This document shows positions 22,932 through 36,830 of a DNA stretch of 64,000 bases, in pieces. Each line of letters opens with the position of its first letter. The first letter of the stretch is position 1. The position numbers were made by a program, and so were the translations under genes. Location of the stretch: contig DRFQ01000009.1 in the NCBI GenBank assembly GCA_011050465.1, forward strand, positions 128,334 through 192,333, in the 5' to 3' direction. This stretch comes from Candidatus Nealsonbacteria bacterium. GTDB lineage: Bacteria; Patescibacteriota; Minisyncoccia; Minisyncoccales; RBG-13-36-15. Below the pieces are notes generated by a model, which saw only the letters and a list, made by a program, of their open reading frames with translations, was not told the origin of the DNA and searched no databases.

Positions 22932-23717
22932 TTAATTATGGGTTGCTATTCCTCGAACTTCAATATTCTCTGAAGAGATAATATTCTTGCATTCCTGAAT
23001 GAATTTTAGAAATTTCTTCCTATCTTTTAAAATATTATAACTTTTAGGAAATTTTTCTTTTAATATGTCCATGAATTCTTTTCCGGCCCCTCTTACGTTA
23101 ATCATTTCAAAAAAATAATAATCAACGAATTTTTTCGTTTTCTCAATTACATCTTTTAAGTTTATTAAACCTGGAATTATAGGGCTGACAAAGGCATAGG
23201 TTTTAAATCCCTCTTCTTTAAGATTCTTTAAAGTATTAATTCTCCTTTCATTTGAGGTCGAAAATGGCTCAAAGATGCGTTTTGTCTCGCCATCAAAACT
23301 ATTTATCGTTAAGCCAATTTCAATATTTTTAAATTTTTTGAAGATATCTATATCTCGTAAAACTAAATCTGATTTTGTTTGAATAGAAAGCTTTATTTTT
23401 TTGTCTAAATTCTCCAAAATTCTCTTGGTTAGTTTCAAGTCTTTCTCAATTGGTTGATAGGGGTCAGTAATAGAACTCATATAGACCCAACCGTCTACAT
23501 ACTTCCCTTTTACTAATTCTGGAGCGTTTATCTTTATTTCAATCCAAGTCCCCCACTTTCCGTAATTGGGCGGCCGCCATTTAGATATAAATTTGGCATA
23601 GCAATAAAGGCAGGCATGTTGGCATCCAACATATTGATTGATTGCCCACTTTACTCCCGGCAGTTTGCTTCTAGTAAAAATTGATTTCGCTTTTACCTTA
23701 ATTAATTTAATTTTCAT
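22932..23717 (-). CDS. radical SAM protein (SplB-like DNA repair photolyase family)
   Basis: Canonical VGCQHACLYCYA (Cx3Cx2C). Confidence 0.8.
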   Translation of the reverse strand: MKIKLIKVKAKSIFTRSKLPGVKWAINQYVGCQHACLYCYAKFISKWRPPNYGKWGTWIEIKINAPELVKGKYVDGWVYMSSITDPYQPIEKDLKLTKRILENLDKKIKLSIQTKSDLVLRDIDIFKKFKNIEIGLTINSFDGETKRIFEPFSTSNERRINTLKNLKEEGFKTYAFVSPIIPGLINLKDVIEKTKKFVDYYFFEMINVRGAGKEFMDILKEKFPKSYNILKDRKKFLKFIQECKNIISSENIEVRGIATHN

Positions 23718-25512: not shown

Positions 25513-25560
25513 GGTTTTAAACAAAATCTTCCTGGCCACATGGGATTATGCTAGAACATT

Positions 25561-27534
25561 TTATTCTAAATAGTCCTTGATCCATTCGATAAGAGTGGGG
25601 GGATCTTTCTTTTGGCTATAAATATATAGTTTTTTCTTTACTCGCGTGATAGACACTATAAATTGGCACAAAAGTTCATTTGTCACCTTGTCTTCATTAA
25701 AATTTACGAGAAAAACATAATCCGCACTAAGCCCTTTTGATCCCAGCGGATTAACAATCTTAATAGAAATATCTTTGTGACCCTCTTTACGAACGTTACT
25801 TCCCTTTATTTCCTTTTTTAATTTATTAAAAGCAATTTCAGAAGGATTATAACTAAACTGATTGAGGATAAATTTTCTTTCCTCATCGTTTATTTTTATG
25901 TTGTCATTAATCTTCTTTAATATTTTTAATACTTTCTTAATCTCACTTTGAATAGTTTTGGGTAATAGACTTCTAAAAACATCTTGTTCTGATTTGCTCT
26001 TCACGATGATTCTTTTAAATTCGGCTGATTTCATCTTGTCCTTAGACAGGATTCTCCAACCAAGATTGCGATCACTGTCCTTTAAAAGAAGCTCGTACCC
26101 CTCCATTTTGATATCATCTTTTCTTTTATTCTGAATATTCCTAAAACCTTTCTCGCGAAGATAATTTTCCATTTCATCTTTTTGCTTAGGAGATCCATGT
26201 GCACAAATTATTAATACAGAAAAATTTCTATCTCGTTCAAAAATCTCCTTAATATCCTTATCAATAAAGAAATCTACCCTCTGTACTTCTCCCCTATAAG
26301 AGATGTTTTGGTATTTTTTAGATATTGCATCTTTTTCTTCTGAACAAAAATACTCAAATCTTTTAGGAATCCTTTTTTTTAGAAATCCCCCTTTCTCGGC
26401 CTTAGATATGAGAGTATTAACAGAATCTATTATTACTTTTGGACAACGAGAACAAAAAGGAAGGGAACGATAAAAATAATTACTTTTAAAATTAAGGCAT
26501 CTAGAACGTATTTCTTCTGGATAAGCGTTTTTAAAATCATAAAGTGATTGATCGTCATCACCAACTATCAGAATCGGGCTTTCATCAGCTAATAAATCTA
26601 ACAATTTTATTTCTAACTTATTAAAATCTTGGAATTCGTCGATTAATATTTGAGAATATTGAGGTATTTCTTTTTTGTCTTTTTCGAAATGCTTTATTAA
26701 ATCGTAGACAGCACAACTCGGACCAATACAGTCATAGTATTTTCTTCTTTTAAAATAAAAAGCTAAAGCTTTAGAATTATTTCTATCCAATAAGTCATTA
26801 AAAATATCCTTAAAGGAAATCTTTCTCCCCTCGATAATATTAAAGTCCTCGCTTATAACATCCGCTATTTGCATAAAAACTTCGGGTTTCTCTGTGGAGC
26901 CTGGGAATAATTCATTCATAACAAAGCTATGCAATGTCCTTACATCGGCCAACTGTCCTAACCCAAACTTTAAATCATTCACTAATTCATTAATGAAGGT
27001 CATGATAAGGTTGTTATCATTTTCTTTCTTTTTACAAACCTTCTCAAACAAGAAAGTTTTTCCTGTTCCGGGCCCGGCCGCAACAACTATTTTAGGTTTA
27101 CTTGATATAATTATTTCATCGGTATGTATTTTTCTTTCTGCTTGATATAAAATTCTTCTCGAAACTTCAGGAGTAAGCCTACTTATAGTTTCTTTAAAAG
27201 TAAACCAATTTCCTTTCTTCTCTACTTTCTGTTCTTTTATTTTTTCACTTTCTGGCACTTCAGATAAATAGAAAAGAAAAAAGTGTATTGTCCTTGAAAT
27301 AGCAGAATCATCTTGATCTACTCTACCAATTTCTCCTTTGCATTCTATGTGGGCATAACCTGTTTTGTGCCTAATACTCTTTATGGCAGTTCCTTCTATG
27401 TTTATCAGATCGGTGTCGCATTTGACTCTGTCACCAATGAGTGACCACTCGTTATTACTTTTTCTCTGAATCAAATAATATTTTCCGTCACTAGGAGACC
27501 AAAGAACACTGACTATAAAAAACTCTTTCTTCAT
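25561..27534 (-). CDS. Nudix-like N-terminal domain fused to a UvrD/PcrA-type SF1 helicase
   Basis: First about 130 aa: Nudix-fold-like with a degenerate box (GDRVKCDTDLINIEGTAIKSIRHKTGY). Then AAGPGTGKTF (motif I), ILIDEFQDFN (II) and IVGDDDQSLY (III). Confidence 0.8.
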   Translation of the reverse strand: MKKEFFIVSVLWSPSDGKYYLIQRKSNNEWSLIGDRVKCDTDLINIEGTAIKSIRHKTGYAHIECKGEIGRVDQDDSAISRTIHFFLFYLSEVPESEKIKEQKVEKKGNWFTFKETISRLTPEVSRRILYQAERKIHTDEIIISSKPKIVVAAGPGTGKTFLFEKVCKKKENDNNLIMTFINELVNDLKFGLGQLADVRTLHSFVMNELFPGSTEKPEVFMQIADVISEDFNIIEGRKISFKDIFNDLLDRNNSKALAFYFKRRKYYDCIGPSCAVYDLIKHFEKDKKEIPQYSQILIDEFQDFNKLEIKLLDLLADESPILIVGDDDQSLYDFKNAYPEEIRSRCLNFKSNYFYRSLPFCSRCPKVIIDSVNTLISKAEKGGFLKKRIPKRFEYFCSEEKDAISKKYQNISYRGEVQRVDFFIDKDIKEIFERDRNFSVLIICAHGSPKQKDEMENYLREKGFRNIQNKRKDDIKMEGYELLLKDSDRNLGWRILSKDKMKSAEFKRIIVKSKSEQDVFRSLLPKTIQSEIKKVLKILKKINDNIKINDEERKFILNQFSYNPSEIAFNKLKKEIKGSNVRKEGHKDISIKIVNPLGSKGLSADYVFLVNFNEDKVTNELLCQFIVSITRVKKKLYIYSQKKDPPTLIEWIKDYLE

Positions 27535-27539
27535 ATGTT

Positions 27540-28193
27540 TTAATTACGAGATTTTCCTGTACGGGTTCTATAATAACACCACTTACAGTTGTTTGGGTCT
27601 TCTTTCGGAGTAGATCCATTTAGAAGTGCAGAAACCGCTGATATAAAAGAATAAAACCCCTTCATATCTTCCTTTATTTCAAACCAATGTGGCTTTGTCT
27701 TAAAAATAACATCATCTCCAGGAAATAAAATTTCCTCTGGACTTATAGCAACAACACCCATTTTACTCACCTTCCTTGGAGAACCAATTTCTGGATTTTC
27801 TAAAGAAAATTTGTATGCGTGTAATTGAGGAAAAAACTTGTTAAGTTTATCTTCACCAGGATTGGTTATCTTAAAGTCAATAACCGCATGCGTTCCATCC
27901 TCTAAACGAGAAACTATATCAAACCTACCGCTAATATAACAATCATCTGTAGGAGGTATGGGTTTTGATTTCAGAAATCCTTCCTTTACTTCAATTTTTC
28001 CTGCTGGCAATCCAGAATTAATCTCTCTTAAATCCATCCCAATAATCGCGTTTTGCAACAACGAATTCATTTTTGTAAAAACTCCTGGCATTCCTATCGA
28101 TGGAAGAGATACGCCATATTTTATCTTTTGGTAATAACAATACTTACAATCCTCGTAAAGATACTTAAAGTCAGATGGACTTAATTTAAACAT
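27540..28193 (-). CDS. Cas4/RecB-like PD-(D/E)xK nuclease with four Cys
   Basis: CKYC near the N-terminus, GRFD, VIDFK, QLHAYKF and C-terminal CKWC. Confidence 0.8.
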   Translation of the reverse strand: MFKLSPSDFKYLYEDCKYCYYQKIKYGVSLPSIGMPGVFTKMNSLLQNAIIGMDLREINSGLPAGKIEVKEGFLKSKPIPPTDDCYISGRFDIVSRLEDGTHAVIDFKITNPGEDKLNKFFPQLHAYKFSLENPEIGSPRKVSKMGVVAISPEEILFPGDDVIFKTKPHWFEIKEDMKGFYSFISAVSALLNGSTPKEDPNNCKWCYYRTRTGKSRN

Positions 28194-28225
28194 AATTTTA
28201 TTTCTTAATTAATTCTTTAACTTTG

Positions 28226-28504
28226 TTATTCTCCAAATCCAGCGCGCTTCATTTTCTCATTAATCGTTCTTTTCTCGCCCGGCAACCGCACCTTCACTAC
28301 TGGACGACCATATGATTTTCCTATCTCCTGAATATAAACCTGCTCTTCCTCTATCATTTCCCTTAATATCTCTTTCGCTTTCTTATAACCTCTTTGACCT
28401 TTTTCTGGCGCATATACTTCAGCAAGGCGATAAAATTGTCCTCTCGGGCCCTGAAAAGTATCTCCATCGCGAACTTTTTTAACGGTGATTTTTTTCATAG
28501 CCAA
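28226..28504 (-). CDS. miniature SNase (thermonuclease)-like protein
   Basis: KVRDGDTF...YRLAEVYAPE resembles the DGDT...RL.GIDTPE core, but the protein is only 92 aa and the catalytic set is incomplete. Confidence 0.4.
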   Translation of the reverse strand: MAMKKITVKKVRDGDTFQGPRGQFYRLAEVYAPEKGQRGYKKAKEILREMIEEEQVYIQEIGKSYGRPVVKVRLPGEKRTINEKMKRAGFGE

Positions 28505-28620
28505 TTATTAACTTTGGTTAATTATATCTTCGACCTTATATTTTATACCAAACAAAAAAAGGGGTCAAACCCTTTCTTAAGTTAAATTTCCCTCGACTTT
28601 GAGCTAAATTTTAGTTATTT

Positions 28621-29001
28621 TTACTCTCGGCTATACCATTCGTCTTCCTCGGATATTTTTGAAGGATAAAAATCGAGTTGTTCTGCCGGAATACTTAATT
28701 TAAACGCACCGAAGGCACGTGCTTCCTGCCAGGTGGATTTGTTATTAGGATCGATATTAAAAACTTTATCTTTAAAAATCACAATTAAATCTTTTCCCTC
28801 ATCATAAATGTGAAAATAATCAGGTCTATCCCCTATCATTGCATTCTGAATTTCTTTTATAGCGTCTTCTACCGGTTCTGTAATTTCAACGATATGCAAA
28901 TGCCAATTCTGCCTTTCTGAGAACTTCGTTCTAAGAATTCTATAATTCTCTAAAATTCTTGGATTTTCTAAGCTTTCCTCAATGATTATAGAGTGATACA
29001 T
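28621..29001 (-). CDS. hypothetical protein (126 aa)
   Basis: GAGGGA SD; sits in an operon with Dam. Confidence 0.5.
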   Translation of the reverse strand: MYHSIIIEESLENPRILENYRILRTKFSERQNWHLHIVEITEPVEDAIKEIQNAMIGDRPDYFHIYDEGKDLIVIFKDKVFNIDPNNKSTWQEARAFGAFKLSIPAEQLDFYPSKISEEDEWYSRE

Positions 29002-29041
29002 AAATTTCCCTCAATTTCGGGCTAAATTTTGATTAAAATAA

Positions 29042-29887
29042 CTATCGAGCTGCAGTTTTCGCTCTTGAGATTGAATCAGAAAAAATCATCAACTCGCGAG
29101 CCTTTCTAATCTTGCAAGAATCATAGACACTATACTTCAAACTAAGGCGTTTTCTCATCCTGTCGGGATAAAATTCTCTGATTTTTTTTACTTCATCGTA
29201 AGTCAATACCCAATTATAGTTAGTATTTGTATTTAATAAATCGGCGAGTTTCTTGTGATCATCCTCTTTATAGTGATTGAGATATAACATTGCACCCTTT
29301 TTAAAATATGGGGGATCTAAGTAAATAAAAGTGTTATTTCTATTTAAATATCTTCTCGTAAGTTGTATTCCATCTTTATTTAATACTGAAATACGGTCTT
29401 GAAATTTCCCAATCTTGCGAACCCGTAAAGCCAGTTTTTTCTTATTGTATCGCATATTTATTTTGTACGGACCGTCTTGATTCTTTCCCCCAATCGGCCC
29501 CGCATTCATTACGCCAGATCTATTAGTTCGATTAAGGAAAAAAGTGGCGAACCCTTTTTCAAAAATATTGGCATTCTTATTTAAATAAATTTGCTTTTGT
29601 TTTTTCCATTCAGTAATAGTCACTGGAGTCGTTATAATTTTCTGCGCAAATCGTTCTGAATTCTGGGTTACTGATTTCCAAAATGCATAAATCGTTTTGT
29701 CTAGATCATTTATGACTATTTGCCTGACCCTATTGTCAAACAACAAAGTTAAGGCTACCCCTGCGCCACCCGCATAAGGTTCGACGTAGGTCGGTTTATC
29801 CAAACCAATGGCAACCAAAATTCTTTTAAGCTCGTCTGCTAAAAATGTTTTACCTCCGGGATATCTTAATGGAGAATAAAATTCCAT
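29042..29887 (-). CDS. Dam-family (D12 class) N6-adenine DNA methyltransferase
   Basis: RYPGGK N-terminal motif and IYLDPPY catalytic motif. Confidence 0.9.
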   Translation of the reverse strand: MEFYSPLRYPGGKTFLADELKRILVAIGLDKPTYVEPYAGGAGVALTLLFDNRVRQIVINDLDKTIYAFWKSVTQNSERFAQKIITTPVTITEWKKQKQIYLNKNANIFEKGFATFFLNRTNRSGVMNAGPIGGKNQDGPYKINMRYNKKKLALRVRKIGKFQDRISVLNKDGIQLTRRYLNRNNTFIYLDPPYFKKGAMLYLNHYKEDDHKKLADLLNTNTNYNWVLTYDEVKKIREFYPDRMRKRLSLKYSVYDSCKIRKARELMIFSDSISRAKTAAR

Positions 29888-29894
29888 ATATAAA

Positions 29895-31331
29895 TCACCC
29901 TCTATTAATAATAAGAGATACTTTGATGTTCTTCAGTCTATCGTGGGTAAATGCTCTTTCTAGGGTAGAGTGTTTTTTAATCTTTTTTTCAGGATCATAG
30001 ATAAAGAAATAGATTCTTTTACAATCCGGACGTCTACTGTACTTAACTAAATCATCGTTCAATTCTTTCTCGATATTTTTTCTTATGCTTTTGTCGCCAC
30101 CTTTTCTTTTAAGAGTTGTTTTTACTTCAATAATAGTGCCGTTATCAAGAAGCAAGAAATCGCCTCTTGATGGCGAAGCTCCGTCTGAAGGATTCCATAC
30201 TTCATTCTCTACATCATCAAAAAACATAGTTAAAAGTGCGTGTAATAAATCTTGTACGTCATATTCATCGCCCATATTCAATGTTTCTCTATTCTTATAT
30301 CTATCTTTCAATTGTTCAGCAACAGCATCAAAATGGATTAAAACATGATCGACTATCTCTACCGCCTCTTGGAGTGGATACTTAACTGAGTTCCGTCGTC
30401 TTCTCAGTTTTAGACTTGGAATATTAGGACTTCTTCTTTTGCTTTTCTTTTTTTTCCGTAGCTTCGTTTTAGGAAACTTGATAGGATCTATTTTAGAAAA
30501 TACATTATCTAATAAATAATCTTTTGTAGCTTGTGCGGGTATCTTTTTCTCTCCAACAATATATGGGAGTAATTTCTTCAGATTACTTTCAGCATTTTTT
30601 CTATTTTTAAAGATGATATTCCCTTTATCGTCGATTAAATAATCAATTAGTTTTTTACCGTTTGCGCTTATAATTAACCTTTCAATTGTATTAAATCCTG
30701 TTTTGAGTAACTCCTCTTCTTTTTTTGCGCCCTCAACCTGGTCTAAAATGTATTCGTAGAAATATAATTTGCCTAACTCGTCTTTAAACTTTGCAGTAGT
30801 AGTCCCATATTCCTTAGAGGCGGAATCAACAGTATATTCACCCCCGTCTATCAAATTTCTGTACATTCTTAATCTCTGTAGAACTTGCCACGGTTTTAAG
30901 AGTTGGTTTACGTGAATATCCCAAATTTCCTTTTCTGCTTCTTTACGCGAGGGCGCAATAGTAATCTTTACACTTTTAAGTTGTCTTTTATTAAGAATCT
31001 TACCTAAACCTTCTAATTCCTTTTTGTTCCGTGCACCAGGGGCGAGTTTAGGATTTAATAGCAACTGACAAGCAGCTAATCTCCTATTTCCATCTAATAC
31101 AATTGATTCCCCATTTTCTTCACAAATAATAGCCACAGCGCTCCTGTGGTAACCATTATTAGCAATACTTCTAGCTATCATCATTACACCTTCTTTTTCT
31201 AAAAGATAATTACGTACTTGATTGACATCTTTTAATTCTTTTACGTGTTTTGGCACCCGAGGATTTTGCAAATCCAAGCTTAGTTCACTTATAGATACTT
31301 TTTTATCACGCCATTGTTTTTTTGCATCCAT
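29895..31331 (-). CDS. ParB/Srx-like N-terminal domain fused to a C-terminal PD-(D/E)xK-like nuclease domain
   Basis: IVLDGNRRLAA (ParB-N). C-terminus has DEYDVQD...RGDFLLLDNGTIIEVK (D...ExK). Confidence 0.65.
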   Translation of the reverse strand: MDAKKQWRDKKVSISELSLDLQNPRVPKHVKELKDVNQVRNYLLEKEGVMMIARSIANNGYHRSAVAIICEENGESIVLDGNRRLAACQLLLNPKLAPGARNKKELEGLGKILNKRQLKSVKITIAPSRKEAEKEIWDIHVNQLLKPWQVLQRLRMYRNLIDGGEYTVDSASKEYGTTTAKFKDELGKLYFYEYILDQVEGAKKEEELLKTGFNTIERLIISANGKKLIDYLIDDKGNIIFKNRKNAESNLKKLLPYIVGEKKIPAQATKDYLLDNVFSKIDPIKFPKTKLRKKKKSKRRSPNIPSLKLRRRRNSVKYPLQEAVEIVDHVLIHFDAVAEQLKDRYKNRETLNMGDEYDVQDLLHALLTMFFDDVENEVWNPSDGASPSRGDFLLLDNGTIIEVKTTLKRKGGDKSIRKNIEKELNDDLVKYSRRPDCKRIYFFIYDPEKKIKKHSTLERAFTHDRLKNIKVSLIINRG

Positions 31332-31359
31332 ATAATTATATTTTAATTTTATCTATCAA

Positions 31360-31530
31360 TTAACTCTTCAAGTTTTTACGATTCATGTGATAACGCATTT
31401 GTTCTCTGGTTCTCATGGTTTTTTCATCGGCAATATCAACCTTACCACATTTTGGGCATTTTTCCTTACAAACAGGACAATAAAACTCTCCGCACTTCTT
31501 ACATTTTATTTGCATAAATTGATGTGGCAT
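31360..31530 (-). CDS. 56-aa zinc-ribbon protein (below the track cutoff)
   Basis: MPHQFMQIKCKKCGEFYCPVCKEKCPKCGKVD... has three CxxC pairs. It lies 28 nt upstream of the ParB-fusion gene. No clear SD. Confidence 0.4.
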   Translation of the reverse strand: MPHQFMQIKCKKCGEFYCPVCKEKCPKCGKVDIADEKTMRTREQMRYHMNRKNLKS

Positions 31531-31592
31531 ATTGAGCTGAATTTGTCGCTTTTTGTGCCTTGCGCGACGTTTTTAGGCTAAATTTTAGTTAT

Positions 31593-31883
31593 TTATACAC
31601 TCAAACCAGCTTCTTTTCTAAAGGCTGGACGACTACATGCTAAAGAAGGGCTATATTTATAGGCCTTCAGGTGATGTTCAATGACTTCTTCTTTATTTTT
31701 TTCAAACCCGCCATATCCCAATAGCTTTTTAACAGCCAATTCTTCTAAAGATGAAGCAATTTTCCTTTGTATGGTCCAATTTACATTGTATTTTTTCCAA
31801 AGACTGACATCCTTCCATTTAAAAAATTCAAATTCTTCTTTTGTAAGCCGCGGGAATTTGTAGTTATACTTAGCAATTTTCAT
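31593..31883 (-). CDS. hypothetical protein (96 aa)
   Basis: 14-nt gap after the upstream gene. Confidence 0.5.
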   Translation of the reverse strand: MKIAKYNYKFPRLTKEEFEFFKWKDVSLWKKYNVNWTIQRKIASSLEELAVKKLLGYGGFEKNKEEVIEHHLKAYKYSPSLACSRPAFRKEAGLSV

Positions 31884-31897
31884 AAATTTGAGTTATT

Positions 31898-32842
31898 TTA
31901 GCCTAAACGTCGAATATACTCTTTGAAAGCTCTCTCTAAACGAATCATTGCATCAATCATTTTGTCTTGTAATTTCTCCCAATTTTCTTTATCGTTCAAT
32001 CCTTTCCCCTTAAATTTAATAGAAATTCGGGACGCACGAGCATTATCTAATCTTTCCCAATTTAGTCTTCCCTTAAACTTTTTTTCAATTTGATTCTTAT
32101 GTTTATATAATTTATCGAAACGAATTTTATTAATATTTGGCTTTATATAATCCTTACCTTTATCAAAATATATTTCACAACCACCGTATTTTTTTGTTAT
32201 TACGTAGCTGTAAATTATCCCTTGTTTGCCAGCACCGGTCCCAATCCAAGAATAAATACCGGGAGTAATATTTGAATGTAAAGATGTCTTTCCTTTAGCT
32301 TTTTCTAAAAGTGCTGTCCAAAATTCTTTTCTTAAAATGTGTCTTTTAGCATATTCCTTTTTCTTTTTACCAATAGTCTCAGACCCTTCTGATGGCCCGG
32401 CGATAATGGAAAATTTGGCAGCCGGATTGGAATTTCCTATTTTGTATGCTTCTATTTGTACTAAATAAAAAGCTGTCTCTGGGCCAAATTCATTCAACCA
32501 GTCAATTGCTCTTTCGTGCTCCTGCCTAGGGTTACTTGATATCCAGATAGCAATTTTTGCATCTAAATTTGCTAGATAAGTTAAAATTTTACCCAAATGT
32601 TCATGGTTTGTTTTCTCTAATTGATTTTCTATAACTACTTTCTGTCCGTTTTCGTCTTCTGCAATGATATCCACAGAAAAAGAACCCGCGTCACCTTCTC
32701 TGTCAATGGCTGTTAAATCCATATCTAATTCTTCTCCCAAAATTTCAATGTTATCGAAAAGCCAAGAGGTGAAATCTCTAGCTTCATTCTTCCAAACTTC
32801 CCTTAAAGGAACTTTTTTTATTCTTTCTATATGCTTTTTCAT
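31898..32842 (-). CDS. DUF4268-type protein with an N-terminal PD-(D/E)xK-like module
   Basis: FSVDIIAEDENGQKVVIENQLEKTNHEHLGKILTY pattern. Confidence 0.65.
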   Translation of the reverse strand: MKKHIERIKKVPLREVWKNEARDFTSWLFDNIEILGEELDMDLTAIDREGDAGSFSVDIIAEDENGQKVVIENQLEKTNHEHLGKILTYLANLDAKIAIWISSNPRQEHERAIDWLNEFGPETAFYLVQIEAYKIGNSNPAAKFSIIAGPSEGSETIGKKKKEYAKRHILRKEFWTALLEKAKGKTSLHSNITPGIYSWIGTGAGKQGIIYSYVITKKYGGCEIYFDKGKDYIKPNINKIRFDKLYKHKNQIEKKFKGRLNWERLDNARASRISIKFKGKGLNDKENWEKLQDKMIDAMIRLERAFKEYIRRLG

Positions 32843-32878
32843 GATTTTATTTCTAAATTAATTCTTCGATTTTTTCTT

Positions 32879-33736
32879 CTAAGCCGGGCAGTAATTTGAA
32901 AGCACTTTCTTATAACTATTCGTGTAGTTTTCGCTCTTTCTGAAATATTTTCTATCAACTGTCCCTTCTTTTATGTGATATTCTATCCCTTTCTCCTCGC
33001 AGAATTTTATAACTCTGTAGGCGCAATCATTGTAGAATGTTTTGTAACTATCAAAATAAGTAGTCAAGGCATTATAATTCCATCTACCGAAAACTATTTT
33101 ATCGACAAAAGCTATTTTTTCCAATATTTTGGTTAGATCCTGTTCAATAAGGTTAGGCGTAGGATAAGGTTCCATACTTACCCAAGTTTTCAAACCTTTA
33201 TTATGTAAGAACTTAAGGGTTTTTACTCTTTTTTCTATCGACACAGCGAATGGCTCTTTACTTCTTCTGAATTTTTCAGACAAAGTGATTATAGTCGAAC
33301 CGTATTCATTATCCCTGCCGTAAATATTTTTTTTAGTCAAAATTTTAGGATATATACCTTTACTTATAGTTACCACTTTTATATTGTCTTCATTCAATCT
33401 TTTGATAATTTCTAAGCTAAGATCTACTACTTCTTTTTGTTTATACATAAAAGGGTCTGTCGAAAAACACAAGTAGACATATTTTATATCTTTTTTATAT
33501 TTCGGAATTTCTAGATCTAATAATTCTAAGGCGTTGCTAACAATTTTAGGTCTTATCCATTCTTTGTAATTTTTAATGATCCCACACCTTTTTTTCATCA
33601 GCATTGCATAGCAAGGATAAGTACACCCATGAGAACATCCCTCAACGTGATTAATGCAATAATCAGCGTATTCTACCCCGCTTTTATATAAAAGAGATTT
33701 TCTAATGATTCTCTGCATACTATTATTATATATCAA
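32879..33736 (-). CDS. radical-SAM-like protein with a non-canonical Cx3Cx3C motif
   Basis: INHVEGCSHGCTYPCYAM, versus the canonical Cx3Cx2C in the paralog 22932..23717. Overlaps the upstream gene by 11 nt. Confidence 0.65.
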   Translation of the reverse strand: MIYNNSMQRIIRKSLLYKSGVEYADYCINHVEGCSHGCTYPCYAMLMKKRCGIIKNYKEWIRPKIVSNALELLDLEIPKYKKDIKYVYLCFSTDPFMYKQKEVVDLSLEIIKRLNEDNIKVVTISKGIYPKILTKKNIYGRDNEYGSTIITLSEKFRRSKEPFAVSIEKRVKTLKFLHNKGLKTWVSMEPYPTPNLIEQDLTKILEKIAFVDKIVFGRWNYNALTTYFDSYKTFYNDCAYRVIKFCEEKGIEYHIKEGTVDRKYFRKSENYTNSYKKVLSNYCPA

Positions 33737-34616
33737 AAAGAGCCTTCTGTGGATTTCTCGCCCTGAAGACTTTGGTTTTTTTCTCCCAGAATTCGATCCC
33801 CCTTTCGTGTTTACTGAATAAAATTAAATAATATAAGGAGGTGTTTTTAATATTTTTAAATATGACCAGTGACGGACTCGAGAAATAACCCAAACCTTTT
33901 ATCATATCGATATAATTCTTACATAAATTTCTGATATTTATTTCTTTACTATTTCCCCAGGTTTTTTTATTAGCAATGTCTTTCCATCCAGGATGGAACT
34001 TATCTAATTTCTTAGAATTTAATTTTCTAATTAAGGCAGCAGAAACCGCTCTTTCAACAGAAGCTATTGGGTAATTCACTATTAAGTCTATCTTCCTTTT
34101 TGCTAATTGTTTGTAAGAACTGAAATGAAATTGCAAACTGTCGGGATCTATAACGGCTAAACTTAAAGAATTATCAGAAATAGATTTTTTTATAATGTTT
34201 CCTATAGCCAAATTACAGTCTTCGTTATAATATTCTACACTGTTTTTTTCTTTTGCTCTTTGTTTTAAGCTGTTTATACAGACTGGATTTTTGTCTATTA
34301 AAAAATATTTTGTAAATTTATTCTTTAAATTTATTGCCTCTAGGCAGGTTCCATCTATTTCTTTTAATCCCTCTCTAATAATACACTTTCCTGGGCCCGA
34401 AAATAAATCTATATAATAAAGTTTTGGCCATTTCTTTTTCATCGCCCCCGAAAAAATATCAATGAAATATTTCAAATGTTCAATTTTATCCTTTGACCAA
34501 TAACCGGAACAACGCAAAGCCAACCCGTCATTTTTAGATTTATATTTTTGACATATTCCATCGTTATTATTTACGCAATTACCGTTTTTATAAAACTTAC
34601 ATTTTTTCATAATCAA
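33726..34616 (-). CDS. TcmP-like (three-Cys-motif partner protein) candidate
   Basis: YWSKDKIEHLKYFIDIF...KLYYIDLFSGPGKC fits the remembered W.x.K...L..Y...Y(I/V)D.F(A/S)G.G pattern. Has an extra Cys-rich N-terminus. Confidence 0.55.
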   Translation of the reverse strand: MIMKKCKFYKNGNCVNNNDGICQKYKSKNDGLALRCSGYWSKDKIEHLKYFIDIFSGAMKKKWPKLYYIDLFSGPGKCIIREGLKEIDGTCLEAINLKNKFTKYFLIDKNPVCINSLKQRAKEKNSVEYYNEDCNLAIGNIIKKSISDNSLSLAVIDPDSLQFHFSSYKQLAKRKIDLIVNYPIASVERAVSAALIRKLNSKKLDKFHPGWKDIANKKTWGNSKEINIRNLCKNYIDMIKGLGYFSSPSLVIFKNIKNTSLYYLILFSKHERGIEFWEKKTKVFRARNPQKALFDI

Positions 34617-34688
34617 AAAACCGTCCTAATGAGTGACCTCTACTCTGTTCAATTTTCTGTAATTTAATTTTCTTCATTTTCCATAATT

Positions 34689-35777
34689 TTATTTTCCAGA
34701 TTTAGTTCGATTGTCTTGTTTACACAACATCTGGCAATTCTCTGAAATAGTTTTTCCACCTTCATGCCAAGGCTTTATGTGGTCAGCTTCCATTTCTTCT
34801 ATTTCGAAATACTTCTTGCATTTTGTGCAGACACCTTTTTGTCTCTCATACGCCTCTCGTTTCATTTTGTCAGTAAACGCGCGTATTGAGAGATATTTTT
34901 CTTGTCTAGTCAATACATAAGGGTAAATGCCTGGTTTTTTCGTTACGTCTTCATCTTGCATTAATTCAGCAATCTCGGTTTCTAGTTTATCGACACTTAG
35001 TTTTTTGTCTTTGAATTGATTGTATGGTTCACCCCATTGCACGCTCTTCATCTCTCTGCGATAATTCGTGAAAGTCTTCCTCACCCACGCTATTACATTT
35101 TGGAAATAGTCCCACAGCTCGTCGGCATTCATGTATTGTTGGTGTTTGGCCATGTAATCTTCAATTTTTCCATAGTTGATCCACGAAAGAACAGTTTCCA
35201 AATATTCTTGTCGGATTGGTTTACCGCTGACTAATTGCCCACCGTCATTTGCCAGCAGATACGCAGCGCAGTTTGTTTTGCTAAATTTTAATTTAGCGTC
35301 GGAGAGCCATGGTCCAGTGTAAACTGCATTCCTCAGTTCTTGGTCGGTCAGTTTTTCACCGGCGATATTGATAATTCTAAACCAATCAAGGCGTTCTTTG
35401 TCTGTGCCCTCGCAGATGTAAATCATGAGCTTATAATCCAAAATCTGTTTTTTTTCTTCGCCAGTTAAGTTGTGGAAATAGAGATTATCCAGTGAAAAAT
35501 CTCCGTTCACATATTGCCCAATGCTAATGGTGCGCTGTTGACCATCAAGCATCTCAAAACAATTTTTGTTTTTCAACCAATACATTACATTGAGTGGAAA
35601 ATTCTTGCGTATGGATTCGATAACTTCTTTGCGTTGTTTATCGTTATAGATAAATTCACGTTGATATTTTGGGCGAATATCGAGTTTATCACCATAAGCC
35701 ACAACACCTTCTTCGGCACTGTCTTTGTAGTCCTCGATCACTTCGCGTATTGAAATTTGGTGTAGTTTAATTTTCAT
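34689..35777 (-). CDS. DUF262 (GmrSD N-terminal, ParB-like) domain fused to an HNH endonuclease
   Basis: IRPKYQREF and LDGQQRT (DUF262). C-terminal CTKCKK...ADHIKPWHEGGKT...NCQMLCKQDNRTK (HNH). Confidence 0.85.
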   Translation of the reverse strand: MKIKLHQISIREVIEDYKDSAEEGVVAYGDKLDIRPKYQREFIYNDKQRKEVIESIRKNFPLNVMYWLKNKNCFEMLDGQQRTISIGQYVNGDFSLDNLYFHNLTGEEKKQILDYKLMIYICEGTDKERLDWFRIINIAGEKLTDQELRNAVYTGPWLSDAKLKFSKTNCAAYLLANDGGQLVSGKPIRQEYLETVLSWINYGKIEDYMAKHQQYMNADELWDYFQNVIAWVRKTFTNYRREMKSVQWGEPYNQFKDKKLSVDKLETEIAELMQDEDVTKKPGIYPYVLTRQEKYLSIRAFTDKMKREAYERQKGVCTKCKKYFEIEEMEADHIKPWHEGGKTISENCQMLCKQDNRTKSGK

Positions 35778-35786
35778 ACTAATTCT

Positions 35787-36830
35787 TTATTTTTTATTTT
35801 TAATTAAAATGCGCGCGTAGATTTCTTTGCCGTCTATCGTAAACCTTTTTCCGTAATTTGGATTGTCTTCGACATACCTGTCTATGCCGATAATCTCAAA
35901 CTGCTTGGGATTATATTTATCAACAAATGTAATTGGAACACCCATTACACCTTTGTAGTCCATTGGAATATCAACATACCGATTTATATTGATAGCATCA
36001 TAGTCGTCATACTTGGGATATTCTTCTGAGCTGTACTTTTTATACAAAGTAAGTTCTTCGTGACGTTTTGTTGTATCAAGATTTGTAAACCACGCGATAT
36101 TGCCCATGCTAAAATATTTCACACCATCTTCAATTTTTATTCTCGACTCAGTTTGTATGTCATAGTTCTCGGGAACTTGAAACCACTTTGTGCCGCCATT
36201 GTCATATCCAAGCCATAACCTATTTTCTTTAATTAGTTTGAAAATTTCTTTGTACGTAATGGCGTTTTGATTACCAAGGATCAAAAACTTTCTGTTGTAT
36301 TCCATAAGTTGCTCAACGTATTCACGAAATAGTGAAAACGGGGGGTTTGTTACCACTATATCAGCTCGTTTGAGCAGTTCTGTGCACTCATCGCTTCGAA
36401 AATCACCTTCTCTATTTAAGGGGGTTGCGGTGTTTTTGTCGTGCTTTAGTAAATACTTTACATCGTCGAGGTTTACCGCACCATCGCCGTCGATATCCGA
36501 CACTTCTTTGATTTCGATTTTGAACGGCTCCTTGCCCGTCGGCTTTAGTCCTTCCACCTCAAACAGTGGCAATTGCCCGCCGGCAATCGGCGATTTAACA
36601 TAACTCGTAGTGATGAGTTTTGTTAACCCCAGCGCGTTGAAATTAGCAGCAAAATACTTAAAGAAGTTGCTCTCGAACGGATCATCGCAGTTACAGTACA
36701 CAACTTTACCACGGAATTGGTCCTTGTAGTGCTTCGCCTCTTTTTCAATATCAGAAAGCTGCGTATAAAACTCGTCTTTCTTTGCTTTGTTTGCTCTAAG
36801 GAAAGATGTATTTAAAGATTTAGTTTTCAT
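35787..36830 (-). CDS. EcoRI-methylase-like N6-adenine DNA methyltransferase
   Basis: DEFYTQLSDIEKE...YCNCDDPFESNFFKYF and DIVVTNPPFSLFREY. Confidence 0.8.
   Translation of the reverse strand: MKTKSLNTSFLRANKAKKDEFYTQLSDIEKEAKHYKDQFRGKVVYCNCDDPFESNFFKYFAANFNALGLTKLITTSYVKSPIAGGQLPLFEVEGLKPTGKEPFKIEIKEVSDIDGDGAVNLDDVKYLLKHDKNTATPLNREGDFRSDECTELLKRADIVVTNPPFSLFREYVEQLMEYNRKFLILGNQNAITYKEIFKLIKENRLWLGYDNGGTKWFQVPENYDIQTESRIKIEDGVKYFSMGNIAWFTNLDTTKRHEELTLYKKYSSEEYPKYDDYDAININRYVDIPMDYKGVMGVPITFVDKYNPKQFEIIGIDRYVEDNPNYGKRFTIDGKEIYARILIKNKK

What the first reader, a model, noticed from the sequence alone, without database searches (positions are those of the whole stretch)
25561..28504. Three-gene operon: mini-SNase-like, Cas4-like Cys4 nuclease and Nudix-like::UvrD helicase fusion
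This unit has its own promoter region and follows the terminator after 28621. The genes are separated by 5-32 nt. The helicase has intact SF1 motifs I-III. It also carries an N-terminal domain of about 130 aa that looks like a Nudix fold with a degenerate Nudix box, which could be a nucleotide sensor rather than a hydrolase. Its partner is a PD-(D/E)xK nuclease with CxxC...CxxC and QhxxY, typical of Cas4/AddB. I do not recognise a Nudix-UvrD fusion paired with a stand-alone Cas4-like nuclease as a named defence or repair system.
Basis: partly seen in the sequence, partly recalled or inferred. Interest (0 to 1): 0.75.

Follow-up and report, generated by a model that had tools for sequence, protein, structure and literature searches.

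The report
Swappable helicase beside conserved Cas4-like nuclease
The three genes are real and correctly read, including a catalytically dead Nudix domain fused to a UvrD-type helicase, but they are not a conserved trio: only the nuclease-plus-helicase pair recurs elsewhere, as a variant of the known Cas4-like/UvrD partnership.

Summary
All three minus-strand ORFs exist at the stated coordinates and every domain call checks out. They are a 90-92 aa mini-SNase, a 217 aa PD-(D/E)xK nuclease with invariant CxxC...CxxC and QxxxY, and a 657 aa SF1 helicase whose first ~135 aa are a Nudix fold lacking all Nudix-box glutamates.

The three-gene system is not supported. DNA homology to the closest relatives of each gene stops at the gene boundaries. 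None of 84 loci of the ~550 aa helicase family carries the nuclease or the SNase. The SNase's closest relative is not followed by the nuclease.

A two-gene module is real. The nuclease family is 60-90% identical across Patescibacteria and comes in two forms. Long forms end in an SSB-like acidic ...[I/L]PF tail; none of 16 readable loci has a neighbouring SF1 helicase. Short forms lack the tail, and at least five loci have an SF1 helicase 5-80 nt downstream (UvrD-like defence type, PcrA-like or Pif1-like). One syntenic pair shows one helicase replaced by another in the same slot.

The locus sits at the edge of an ~11 kb defence island. The Nudix::helicase fusion is very rare (two protein clusters) and under purifying selection. 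I file it as a new variant of the known UvrD/Cas4-like association, of moderate interest.

The parts
28540..28578 (-). Terminator-like hairpin (28578..28555) overlapping a sigma-70-like promoter match (TTGACC-17-TAAAAT, 28568..28540), upstream of the SNase-like gene
   Evidence: These are pattern matches only and are not enriched over shuffled sequence.
28226..28504 (-). Mini staphylococcal-nuclease-like gene, 92 aa from TTG or 90 aa from the ATG at 28498. It is an independent module, not part of the conserved pair.
   Evidence: Pfam SNase 7.4e-5, covering profile positions 3-73 of 107. phrog_452 endonuclease 4e-10. A 91% identical homologue in L114 sits in a different context with no nuclease after it. 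dN/dS is 0.02.
27540..28193 (-). Short form of a Patescibacteria-wide Cas4/RecB-like PD-(D/E)xK nuclease: D92, D106-x-K108, Q123xxxY127 and CxxC(16-19)...CxxC(203-206). It lacks the C-terminal acidic ...IPF tail of the long forms.
   Evidence: PDDEXK_1 1e-6. 354 homologues, the best 120 listed all at least 70% identical. Invariant residues. AF2 model with Foldseek matches to AdnA, Cas4 SSO0001, Exo5, ACE1, MGME1 and AddAB.
27130..27534 (-). N-terminal domain of the helicase (aa 1-135): a Nudix fold whose Nudix box has lost all catalytic glutamates
   Evidence: dN/dS is 0.24 against the 78% identical relative, the same as the helicase core.
25561..27129 (-). SF1A UvrD-like helicase core (aa 136-657, motifs I-VI), a member of a ~550 aa family found in RM and defence islands
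   Evidence: Neighbourhoods of 84 family loci.
28621..36830 (-). Context: an ~8 kb run of defence genes upstream on the same strand. It holds a 126 aa orphan, PD-Lambda-5 B/A (Dam-like MTase plus ParB-N/DpnII-MboI REase), PDC-S11, PDC-M41 A/B-like genes, a GmrSD_N/HNH type II REase and an EcoRI-like MTase.

Best explanation
The locus is a mosaic of three separately shuffled genes at the core-proximal edge of a defence island in a Candidatus Nealsonbacteria genome.

The functional unit is two genes. One is a highly conserved Cas4/RecB-like PD-(D/E)xK nuclease with a four-cysteine metal site. The other, immediately downstream and probably translationally coupled (5 nt gap), is an SF1 UvrD-like helicase.

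By analogy with RecB, AddAB, AdnAB and Dna2, the helicase would load at a DNA end or nick, unwind or translocate with ATP, and feed single strands to the nuclease. That step is inferred, not shown.

Nuclease relatives that keep an SSB-like acidic ...IPF C-terminal tail are solo genes. I infer that they borrow a partner in trans through that tail. Relatives that lost the tail carry their own helicase next door, and that helicase is interchangeable between families.

The helicase in this window comes from a ~550 aa family that otherwise sits among restriction-modification and other defence genes. It has acquired a catalytically dead but selectively maintained Nudix domain. I infer that this domain is a ligand or base-recognition sensor that gates or targets the motor, as the Nudix-like domains of NrtR and MutY do.

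The mini-SNase gene is a separate, strongly constrained small nuclease. It may be co-transcribed with the pair but is not evolutionarily linked to it.
For: Modularity:
- Homology blocks to the nearest relatives end at gene borders: the helicase ORF only in L001/L002, the nuclease ORF only in L109/L110, and the SNase ORF only in L114.

Recurrence of the pair:
- Window (5 nt gap).
- L110: nuclease 88% identical, helicase of the same family only 42% identical.
- L111/L112: 566 aa helicase of the same family carrying a Zn-ribbon instead of the Nudix domain.
- L020: PcrA-like helicase.
- L113: PIF1 family helicase.

Link between tail and helicase:
- None of 16 long-form loci has an adjacent SF1 helicase; 5 of 6-7 short-form loci do. 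Fisher p is 2e-4 to 6e-4.
- Short forms fall in at least 4 lineages of the nuclease tree.
- No tail remnant lies downstream of the helicases.

Replacement in place:
- L020 and L111 are 88.7% identical in DNA up to about 20 nt before the nuclease stop, and again from the 196 aa gene onwards. Between those points they hold non-orthologous helicases, 24% identical.

Nuclease fold:
- It matches the helicase-coupled nucleases AdnA, Cas4, Exo5 and AddAB.

Nudix domain:
-. dN/dS is 0.24 against 0.22 for the helicase core.

Defence context:
-.

Literature:
- Solo Cas4 in CPR, and UvrD fused or paired with Cas4-like nucleases in defence contexts: PMC5704561.
- A GajB-like helicase with a non-GajA partner that protects E. 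coli: 10.64898/2025.12.08.692795.
- The Nudix-like effector domain of NrtR: PMC2330246.
- The SSB-Ct motif DDDIPF: PMC5872125.
Against: - None of the 84 helicase-family loci sampled from metagenomes has this nuclease, and the closest Nudix::helicase relative has a different upstream gene. The helicase therefore does not need this nuclease.
- Most nuclease homologues are solo.
- The sample of short-form loci is small (6-7) and partly non-independent.
- One aberrant short form (L024) has no co-directional gene within 340 nt downstream. A second (L115) shows none in the 157 nt that can be read.
- The breakpoints lie at the nuclease 3' end, so a cassette-insertion hot spot could produce the same correlation between tail loss and helicase presence.
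- No physical interaction, activity or ligand has been tested.
- The nuclease model is only moderately confident (pLDDT 74.7).
Confidence: 0.55

Rival explanations
1. Chance juxtaposition. The nuclease is a housekeeping solo Cas4-like repair enzyme of Patescibacteria that happens to flank a hot spot for gene insertion. The helicase is a stand-alone defence or RM-accessory gene that landed there, and the insertions clipped the nuclease's tail codons. Each of the three genes then acts alone.
For: Homology breakpoints fall at or just inside the nuclease 3' end. The helicase family has no conserved partner in 84 loci and sits among RM genes. The nuclease sits next to varied genes, including housekeeping ones. 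RM genes often lie beside the nuclease.
Against: Every gene found directly after a tail-less nuclease is an SF1 DNA helicase, and these come from three different families, including PcrA-like and Pif1-like ones that are not typical island cargo. One helicase replaces another in the same slot. No tail remnant lies downstream.
Confidence: 0.25
2. Housekeeping double-strand-break resection machine: a minimal, split AddAB/AdnAB/RecB or Dna2 analogue for small CPR genomes, unrelated to phage defence.
For: The nuclease fold matches AdnA and AddAB nuclease domains. Partners in other genomes are PcrA-like and Pif1-like helicases. One long-form neighbour is an SRAP repair protein. The nuclease is very highly conserved. 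Unfused UvrD plus Cas4-like operons in repair-like contexts are described in PMC5704561.
Against: The window's helicase belongs to a family whose neighbours are overwhelmingly RM and defence genes. The locus abuts five recognised or candidate defence systems. NCBIfam addA, recB and uvrD scores are far below their cut-offs. The pair is absent from most genomes that carry the nuclease.
Confidence: 0.1
3. One reading: SNase-like, Cas4-like and Nudix::UvrD genes form one dedicated three-component defence system.
For: The genes are tightly spaced and co-directional, with no terminator-like site between them. All three are nucleic-acid enzymes in a defence island.
Against: No other locus among the 115 fetched holds all three, or the SNase together with either partner. 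In L114 the SNase stands without the nuclease. The Nudix::helicase in L001 stands without either.
Confidence: 0.07

Closest known systems
UvrD-like helicase / Cas4-like (PF12705) nuclease associations described by Hudaiberdiev et al. 2017 (PMC5704561)
   Same: An SF1 UvrD-type helicase is linked to a PF12705 Cas4-like nuclease. The context is often RM or defence. Solo Cas4-like genes are over-represented in CPR. An ancillary unwinding-and-cleavage role has been proposed.
   Different: Here the two are separate genes, with the nuclease first. The helicase partner is interchangeable between SF1 families. The nuclease has a 2+2 cysteine pattern and, in its long forms, an SSB-like tail. The helicase carries a dead Nudix domain. 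None of these features is reported in that paper.
AddAB / AdnAB / RecBCD helicase-nuclease complexes
   Same: A PD-(D/E)xK RecB-family nuclease works with an SF1A motor. The best fold matches of the nuclease model are AdnA, with AddAB also matched.
   Different: Those are large subunits of about 1000 aa or more with fused domains. Here the parts are a 217 aa nuclease and a 657 aa helicase. NCBIfam addA and recB scores are far below their cut-offs. The pair is not conserved across related genomes.
Gabija GajB and the GajB-plus-alternative-partner subtype (Liu-DS1, preprint 10.64898/2025.12.08.692795)
   Same: A compact UvrD-like helicase of about 500-600 aa in defence islands, paired with a nuclease. 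The best PADLOC hits are GajB profiles.
   Different: There is no GajA (OLD ATPase-TOPRIM) here or beside family members. The GajB profile hits are generic: a PcrA-like helicase scores much higher on them.
NrtR regulators and the MutY C-terminal domain (non-catalytic Nudix folds)
   Same: A Nudix fold with a degenerate Nudix box is used to bind a ligand (ADP-ribose in NrtR, PMC2330246) or a DNA base (8-oxoG in MutY, which is among the fold matches).
   Different: Here the fold is fused to the N-terminus of an SF1 helicase. The ligand is unknown. Its nearest sequence relatives are small active-looking Nudix hydrolases, not NrtR or MutY.
CRISPR-associated Cas4
   Same: PD-(D/E)xK core, QxxxY motif, four cysteines bridging the N- and C-terminal helices, and fold similarity to SSO0001.
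   Different: There is no cas gene or CRISPR array in the window. The Cas4 profiles match only weakly, at 9e-4. The cysteine pattern is CxxC...CxxC rather than the C...CxxC...C pattern that I recall for Cas4 and AddB.

Membership tests
Nudix superfamily (fold) | Alpha/beta/alpha Nudix fold, with sequence homology to Nudix proteins | tested here: met
   phmmer hits with E 1e-6 to 4e-4 to proteins that pass Pfam NUDIX at 1e-17 to 1e-21. AF2 model with pLDDT 84.6 matches the Nudix structures 3i7u, 5ggc and 3ees.
Nudix hydrolases (active enzymes) | Nudix box GX5EX7REUXEEXGU with its catalytic glutamates | tested here: not met
   The alignment shows REx2EE replaced by K-S-I-R-H-K in the window and by K-N-I-K-Q-K in P0002, plus a 3-residue insertion. 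Pfam NUDIX does not hit the domain.
SF1A UvrD/Rep/PcrA-like helicases | Helicase motifs I-VI and Pfam UvrD-helicase/AAA_19 | tested here: met
UvrD, PcrA, Rep, RecB, AddA (orthologues) | NCBIfam equivalog score above the curated cut-off | tested here: not met
   Scores of 25-50 bits against cut-offs of 696-1168.
Gabija | A GajB-type helicase encoded next to GajA (ATPase plus TOPRIM nuclease) | tested here: not met
   Only GajB profiles hit, at 9e-20. No GajA was found among the window neighbours, and it is not among the 25 most frequent PADLOC families for the 82 genes flanking family members.
RecB/Cas4-like PD-(D/E)xK nucleases (PF12705) | D...(D/E)xK catalytic core plus the QxxxY motif | tested here: met
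   PDDEXK_1 1e-6. D92, D106, K108, Q123 and Y127 are invariant. Fold matches.
Cas4 proper | Association with cas1/cas2 or a CRISPR array | tested here: not met
   No cas hits in the neighbours scanned. No CRISPR-like tandem array in the 64 kb window.
Cas4/AddB iron-sulfur nucleases | Four cysteines that ligate an Fe-S cluster | tested here: inconclusive
   Four invariant cysteines are present, but spaced 2+2 (C16, C19, C203, C206). The identity of the metal cannot be determined with these tools.
Staphylococcal nuclease (SNase/thermonuclease) | Pfam SNase above the gathering score, with a complete OB-fold and Ca2+ and catalytic residues | tested here: inconclusive
   The score of 23.6 bits exceeds the cut-off of 21, but only profile positions 3-73 of 107 are covered. 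By eye against S. aureus nuclease as I remember it, the DGDT, R35, E43 and R87 equivalents are present, while D40 is replaced by Tyr and the C-terminal helices are missing.
UvrD/Cas4-like linked pair (PMC5704561) | A PF12705 nuclease fused to, or in an operon with, an SF1 UvrD-like helicase | tested here: met
   The pair lies 5 nt apart in the window. The same pairing occurs in L110, L111/L112 and L020.

The most novel reading that the evidence does not exclude
The tail-less Cas4-like nuclease plus an adjacent, swappable SF1 helicase is an undescribed two-gene anti-phage module of Patescibacteria. In this version a catalytically dead Nudix domain senses a nucleotide signal or a modified or damaged base and licenses the helicase-nuclease to degrade invading DNA. 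A corollary is that the solo long-form nucleases use an SSB-C-terminus mimic to hijack SSB-binding helicases in trans.
Probability: 0.2. Interest if true: 0.75.

Novelty: new variant of a known kind. Interest (0 to 1): 0.5.

Why it matters
Patescibacteria (CPR) have tiny genomes, mostly lack CRISPR, and their DNA repair and defence toolkits are poorly understood. An over-representation of solo Cas4-like nucleases in them has been an open observation since 2017 (PMC5704561).

The pattern found here gives that question a concrete, testable handle on how these nucleases find a motor protein. An SSB-like tail goes with solo genes. Loss of the tail goes with a dedicated but interchangeable SF1 helicase next door.

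The dead-Nudix::helicase fusion adds a candidate sensor domain to defence-island helicases. It extends the NrtR and MutY precedent for non-catalytic Nudix folds. The practical stakes are modest unless function is shown.

Tried and rejected
- A word-indexed homologue search with the N-terminal 145 aa alone returned nothing, not even the parent protein. Pfam on that domain gave only a spurious EF-Ts_N hit. The exhaustive phmmer search solved the question.
- I first concluded that the nuclease and helicase never co-occur. I revised this after looking at the closest, shorter nuclease forms.
- I tested whether helicase insertion had left a remnant of the ...IPF tail downstream. None was found.
- I looked for the nuclease in viral contigs and phage genomes, and for the helicase family on plasmids. 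There were no nuclease hits, and one weak helicase hit on a Rhizobium plasmid.
- PDB sequence search for the nuclease found nothing significant.
- Rfam on 20-36 kb and the tRNA scan of the window found nothing.
- The gene upstream of the helicase in L001 has a GIDIIA...ISVK motif that looks PD-(D/E)xK-like. No Pfam or PADLOC hit supports this, so it is left as unverified.
- The last neighbourhood look-up (L115) was uninformative, because the contig ends 157 nt after the nuclease.
- The 36-nt repeats after the SNase gene in L114 were checked as a possible CRISPR array. Their irregular spacing of 100 and 176 nt argues against that.
Full report
**1. What is in the sequence**

The first ORF is 92 aa from a TTG. 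Public databases hold the 90 aa version that starts at the ATG at 28498.

Pfam supports all three calls:
- SNase 7.4e-5, at 23.6 bits against a cut-off of 21, covering only profile positions 3-73 of 107.
- PDDEXK_1 1e-6.
- UvrD-helicase 5e-17 and AAA_19 5e-15.

An exact protein match names the organism as a Candidatus Nealsonbacteria MAG, that is, Patescibacteria/CPR.

A terminator-like hairpin (28578..28555) and a promoter-like site (28568..28540) precede the first gene. Such pattern matches are no more common in this region than in shuffled sequence, so the transcription-unit claim is plausible but unproven.

**2. The Nudix claim**

Pfam does not see a domain in residues 1-145. An exhaustive phmmer search of 1.84 billion representative proteins finds P0002, the one other protein with the same architecture, and six stand-alone 142-148 aa proteins at E 1e-6 to 4e-4. 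All six are clear Pfam NUDIX members.

The alignment shows what has changed. The Nudix-box core, read as R-E-x-x-E-E in those relatives, is K-S-I-R-H-K in the window and K-N-I-K-Q-K in P0002, and both carry a three-residue insertion. All catalytic glutamates are therefore gone.

An AF2 model (pLDDT 84.6) matches Ap4A hydrolase, MutT1 and RppH. It also matches the non-catalytic Nudix-fold domain of MutY. The model was built from an alignment containing Nudix proteins, so the sequence hits are the independent evidence here.

Between the window and its 78% identical relative, dN/dS is 0.24 for the Nudix part and 0.22 for the helicase part. The dead domain is maintained by selection.

**3. The helicase**

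More than 1300 homologues exist. Apart from P0001 (the window's own protein) and P0002, the best 120 are 526-580 aa and align only to residues ~130-655. Motifs I-VI are invariant in 31 of them.

I examined 84 loci of this family: the window, three loci fetched earlier and 80 metagenomic loci. No partner gene is conserved. The immediate neighbours are dominated by restriction-modification and other defence genes. These include N6_Mtase, Eco57I, HsdS, HsdR, Mrr, GmrSD, HNH and TIR, and PADLOC type I and IIG components. In several loci the gene is embedded in type I RM operons; in L004 the order is hsdM-helicase-hsdS-x-hsdR.

None of these loci contains a homologue of the window's nuclease or SNase. 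A real N-terminal extra domain occurs only in the window and L001 (Nudix) and in L111 (a CxxC...CxxC zinc ribbon). The other long N-termini are ORF-calling artefacts.

The PADLOC hits are to GajB profiles. They are generic, because a PcrA-like helicase scores far higher on the same profiles, and no GajA is present.

**4. The nuclease**

The search returned 354 homologues. The best 120 listed are all at least 70% identical, and related loci from the genome scan go down to 61%. The contigs are labelled Woese-, Levy-, Ames- and Gottesmanbacteria, Saccharibacteria and others.

D92, D106-x-K108, Q123xxxY127 and the four cysteines C16, C19, C203 and C206 are invariant. A moderately confident model (pLDDT 74.7) matches the AdnA nuclease domain, Cas4 SSO0001, Exo5, the Argonaute-associated Cas4 protein ACE1, MGME1, RecE and AddAB. 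This is the RecB/Cas4 clade, much of which works on single strands supplied by a motor.

In most loci the nuclease's neighbours are unrelated to one another, and RM genes are often nearby.

**5. Is the trio a unit? No**

DNA-level comparison with the closest relative of each gene gives homology blocks that stop at the gene borders:
- L001/L002 match window 27535..25553, the helicase ORF only.
- L109/L110 match 28224/28218..27568/27538, the nuclease ORF only.
- L114 matches 28544..28224, the SNase ORF and its leader only.

In L001 the upstream gene is unrelated to the nuclease. In L114 the SNase gene follows an HsdR-like gene and a Schlafen/HATPase gene. It is followed by non-coding 36-nt repeats, not by the nuclease.

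The SNase-like gene is real and strongly constrained (dN/dS 0.02), but it is an independent module.

**6. Is there a pair? Yes, with a twist**

The nuclease family has two forms.

Long forms (223-229 aa) end in an acidic stretch followed by [I/L/M/V]PF, for example QEDIPF. This resembles the conserved SSB C-terminal interaction motif DDDIPF (PMC5872125). Short forms (212-219 aa), which include the window's, lack it.

Of 16 distinct long-form loci with readable downstream DNA, none has an adjacent SF1 helicase. Five short-form loci have a co-directional SF1 helicase 5-80 nt downstream:
- Window: the Nudix::helicase.
- L110: same helicase family, 42% identical, while the nuclease is 88% identical.
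- L111/L112: same family, 31% identical, with the Zn-ribbon.
- L020: PcrA-like.
- L113: PIF1 family.

A sixth locus, L109, has an ORF start 22 nt downstream that resembles the family's N-terminus, but the contig ends there. L115 is unreadable beyond 157 nt. L024 has an aberrant C-terminus and no co-directional gene within 340 nt.

Fisher's exact p is 2e-4 to 6e-4. Short forms fall in at least four lineages of a neighbour-joining tree.

L020 and L111 are 88.7% identical in DNA up to about 20 nt before the nuclease stop, and again from a shared 196 aa gene onwards. In between they carry non-orthologous helicases, 24% identical. One helicase replacing another in the same slot is what a functional link predicts.

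No remnant of the tail is found downstream of the helicases. The hot-spot explanation therefore has no direct support, but it is not excluded.

**7. Mechanism**

Shown:
- Domain identities and intact catalytic motifs in the nuclease and helicase.
- A dead but conserved Nudix fold.
- Modular shuffling of the three genes.
- Recurrent nuclease-to-SF1-helicase adjacency tied to loss of the tail.
- The defence-island setting. Upstream on the same strand lie a 126 aa orphan, PD-Lambda-5 B/A, PDC-S11, PDC-M41-like genes and a type II RM pair. Downstream lie an HD-domain gene and pyrB.

Inferred:
- The pair works as a split RecB/AddAB/AdnAB-like helicase-nuclease.
- Tailed solo nucleases recruit a partner in trans through an SSB-Ct-like peptide.
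- The Nudix domain is a ligand- or base-sensing regulatory module, with NrtR (PMC2330246) and the MutY domain seen as precedents.
- Here the role is defence rather than repair, judged from context only.

**8. Comparison with what is known**

Hudaiberdiev et al. (PMC5704561) already reported several relevant points. Solo Cas4 genes are common in CPR. PF12705 Cas4-like nucleases are often fused to UvrD-like helicases in RM-linked defence contexts, and sometimes sit in unfused operons.

A 2025 preprint (10.64898/2025.12.08.692795) shows a GajB-like helicase with a non-GajA partner protecting E. coli. It also shows a UvrD-like helicase recruited as an accessory component of a DarTG defence system.

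The kind is therefore known. What is new here:
- The dead-Nudix::helicase architecture, seen in only two clusters among 1.84 billion representatives.
- The interchangeable-helicase slot.
- The correlation between the SSB-like tail and solo status.
- The 2+2 cysteine arrangement.

**9. Verdict**

The interpretation as a three-gene system is not supported. A two-gene module is supported, with confidence about 0.55. It is a new variant of a known kind, with interest 0.5.

Noticed in passing
Alignment A4/A5; loci L007-L028 against window 27540-28193: Long forms of the nuclease end in an acidic stretch plus [I/L/M/V]PF, for example QEDIPF, which resembles the SSB C-terminal tip DDDIPF. Short forms lack it, and they are the ones with an adjacent SF1 helicase.
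   Followed up: partly
L020:6623-12075 against L111:5623-7418: The flanks are syntenic at 88-91% nt identity, but the slot after the nuclease holds a PcrA-like helicase plus about 4 kb of extra genes in L020 and a 566 aa UvrD-like helicase with an N-terminal zinc ribbon in L111. A 57-nt segment of L020 (8559-8615) also matches L111 7946-8002, which hints at a duplicated junction.
   Followed up: partly
window 28583-28629 and 29001-29047: A 47-nt direct repeat (77% identical) lies immediately after the stop codons of the Dam-like methylase gene and of the 126 aa orphan ORF, and so brackets that orphan. This could mark a cassette junction or a shared 3' element.
   Followed up: no
window 29042-36830: A dense defence island: PD-Lambda-5 B/A (Dam-like MTase plus ParB-N/DpnII-MboI REase), PDC-S11 (DUF4268), PDC-M41 A/B-like genes, a GmrSD_N/HNH REase_II and an EcoRI-like methylase.
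   Followed up: partly
window 32879-33736 and 22932-23717: Two radical-SAM-like proteins (285 and 261 aa) cluster as paralogues and lie on either side of the island-plus-trio region. The first hits PDC-M41B weakly.
   Followed up: no
L004:4533-11855; also L058, L059, L030, L067: The ~550 aa helicase family is repeatedly embedded in or next to type I RM or N6-methylase operons. In L004 it sits between hsdM and hsdS with overlapping or 10-nt junctions.
   Followed up: partly
L114:5920-6231: Three copies of a 36-nt repeat with irregular spacing (100 and 176 nt) follow the SNase-like gene. This is not a CRISPR-like array.
   Followed up: partly
L014, L015, L023, L024, L026, L027 (record titles): Contigs carrying the Patescibacteria-type nuclease (61-78% identical to the window's) are labelled Gammaproteobacteria or Bathyarchaeia MAGs. 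This may reflect binning errors or horizontal transfer.
   Followed up: no
L001:3-392: The partial gene upstream of the only other Nudix::helicase contains a GIDIIA...ISVK motif reminiscent of a PD-(D/E)xK site. It has no profile hit and no similarity to the window's nuclease.
   Followed up: partly
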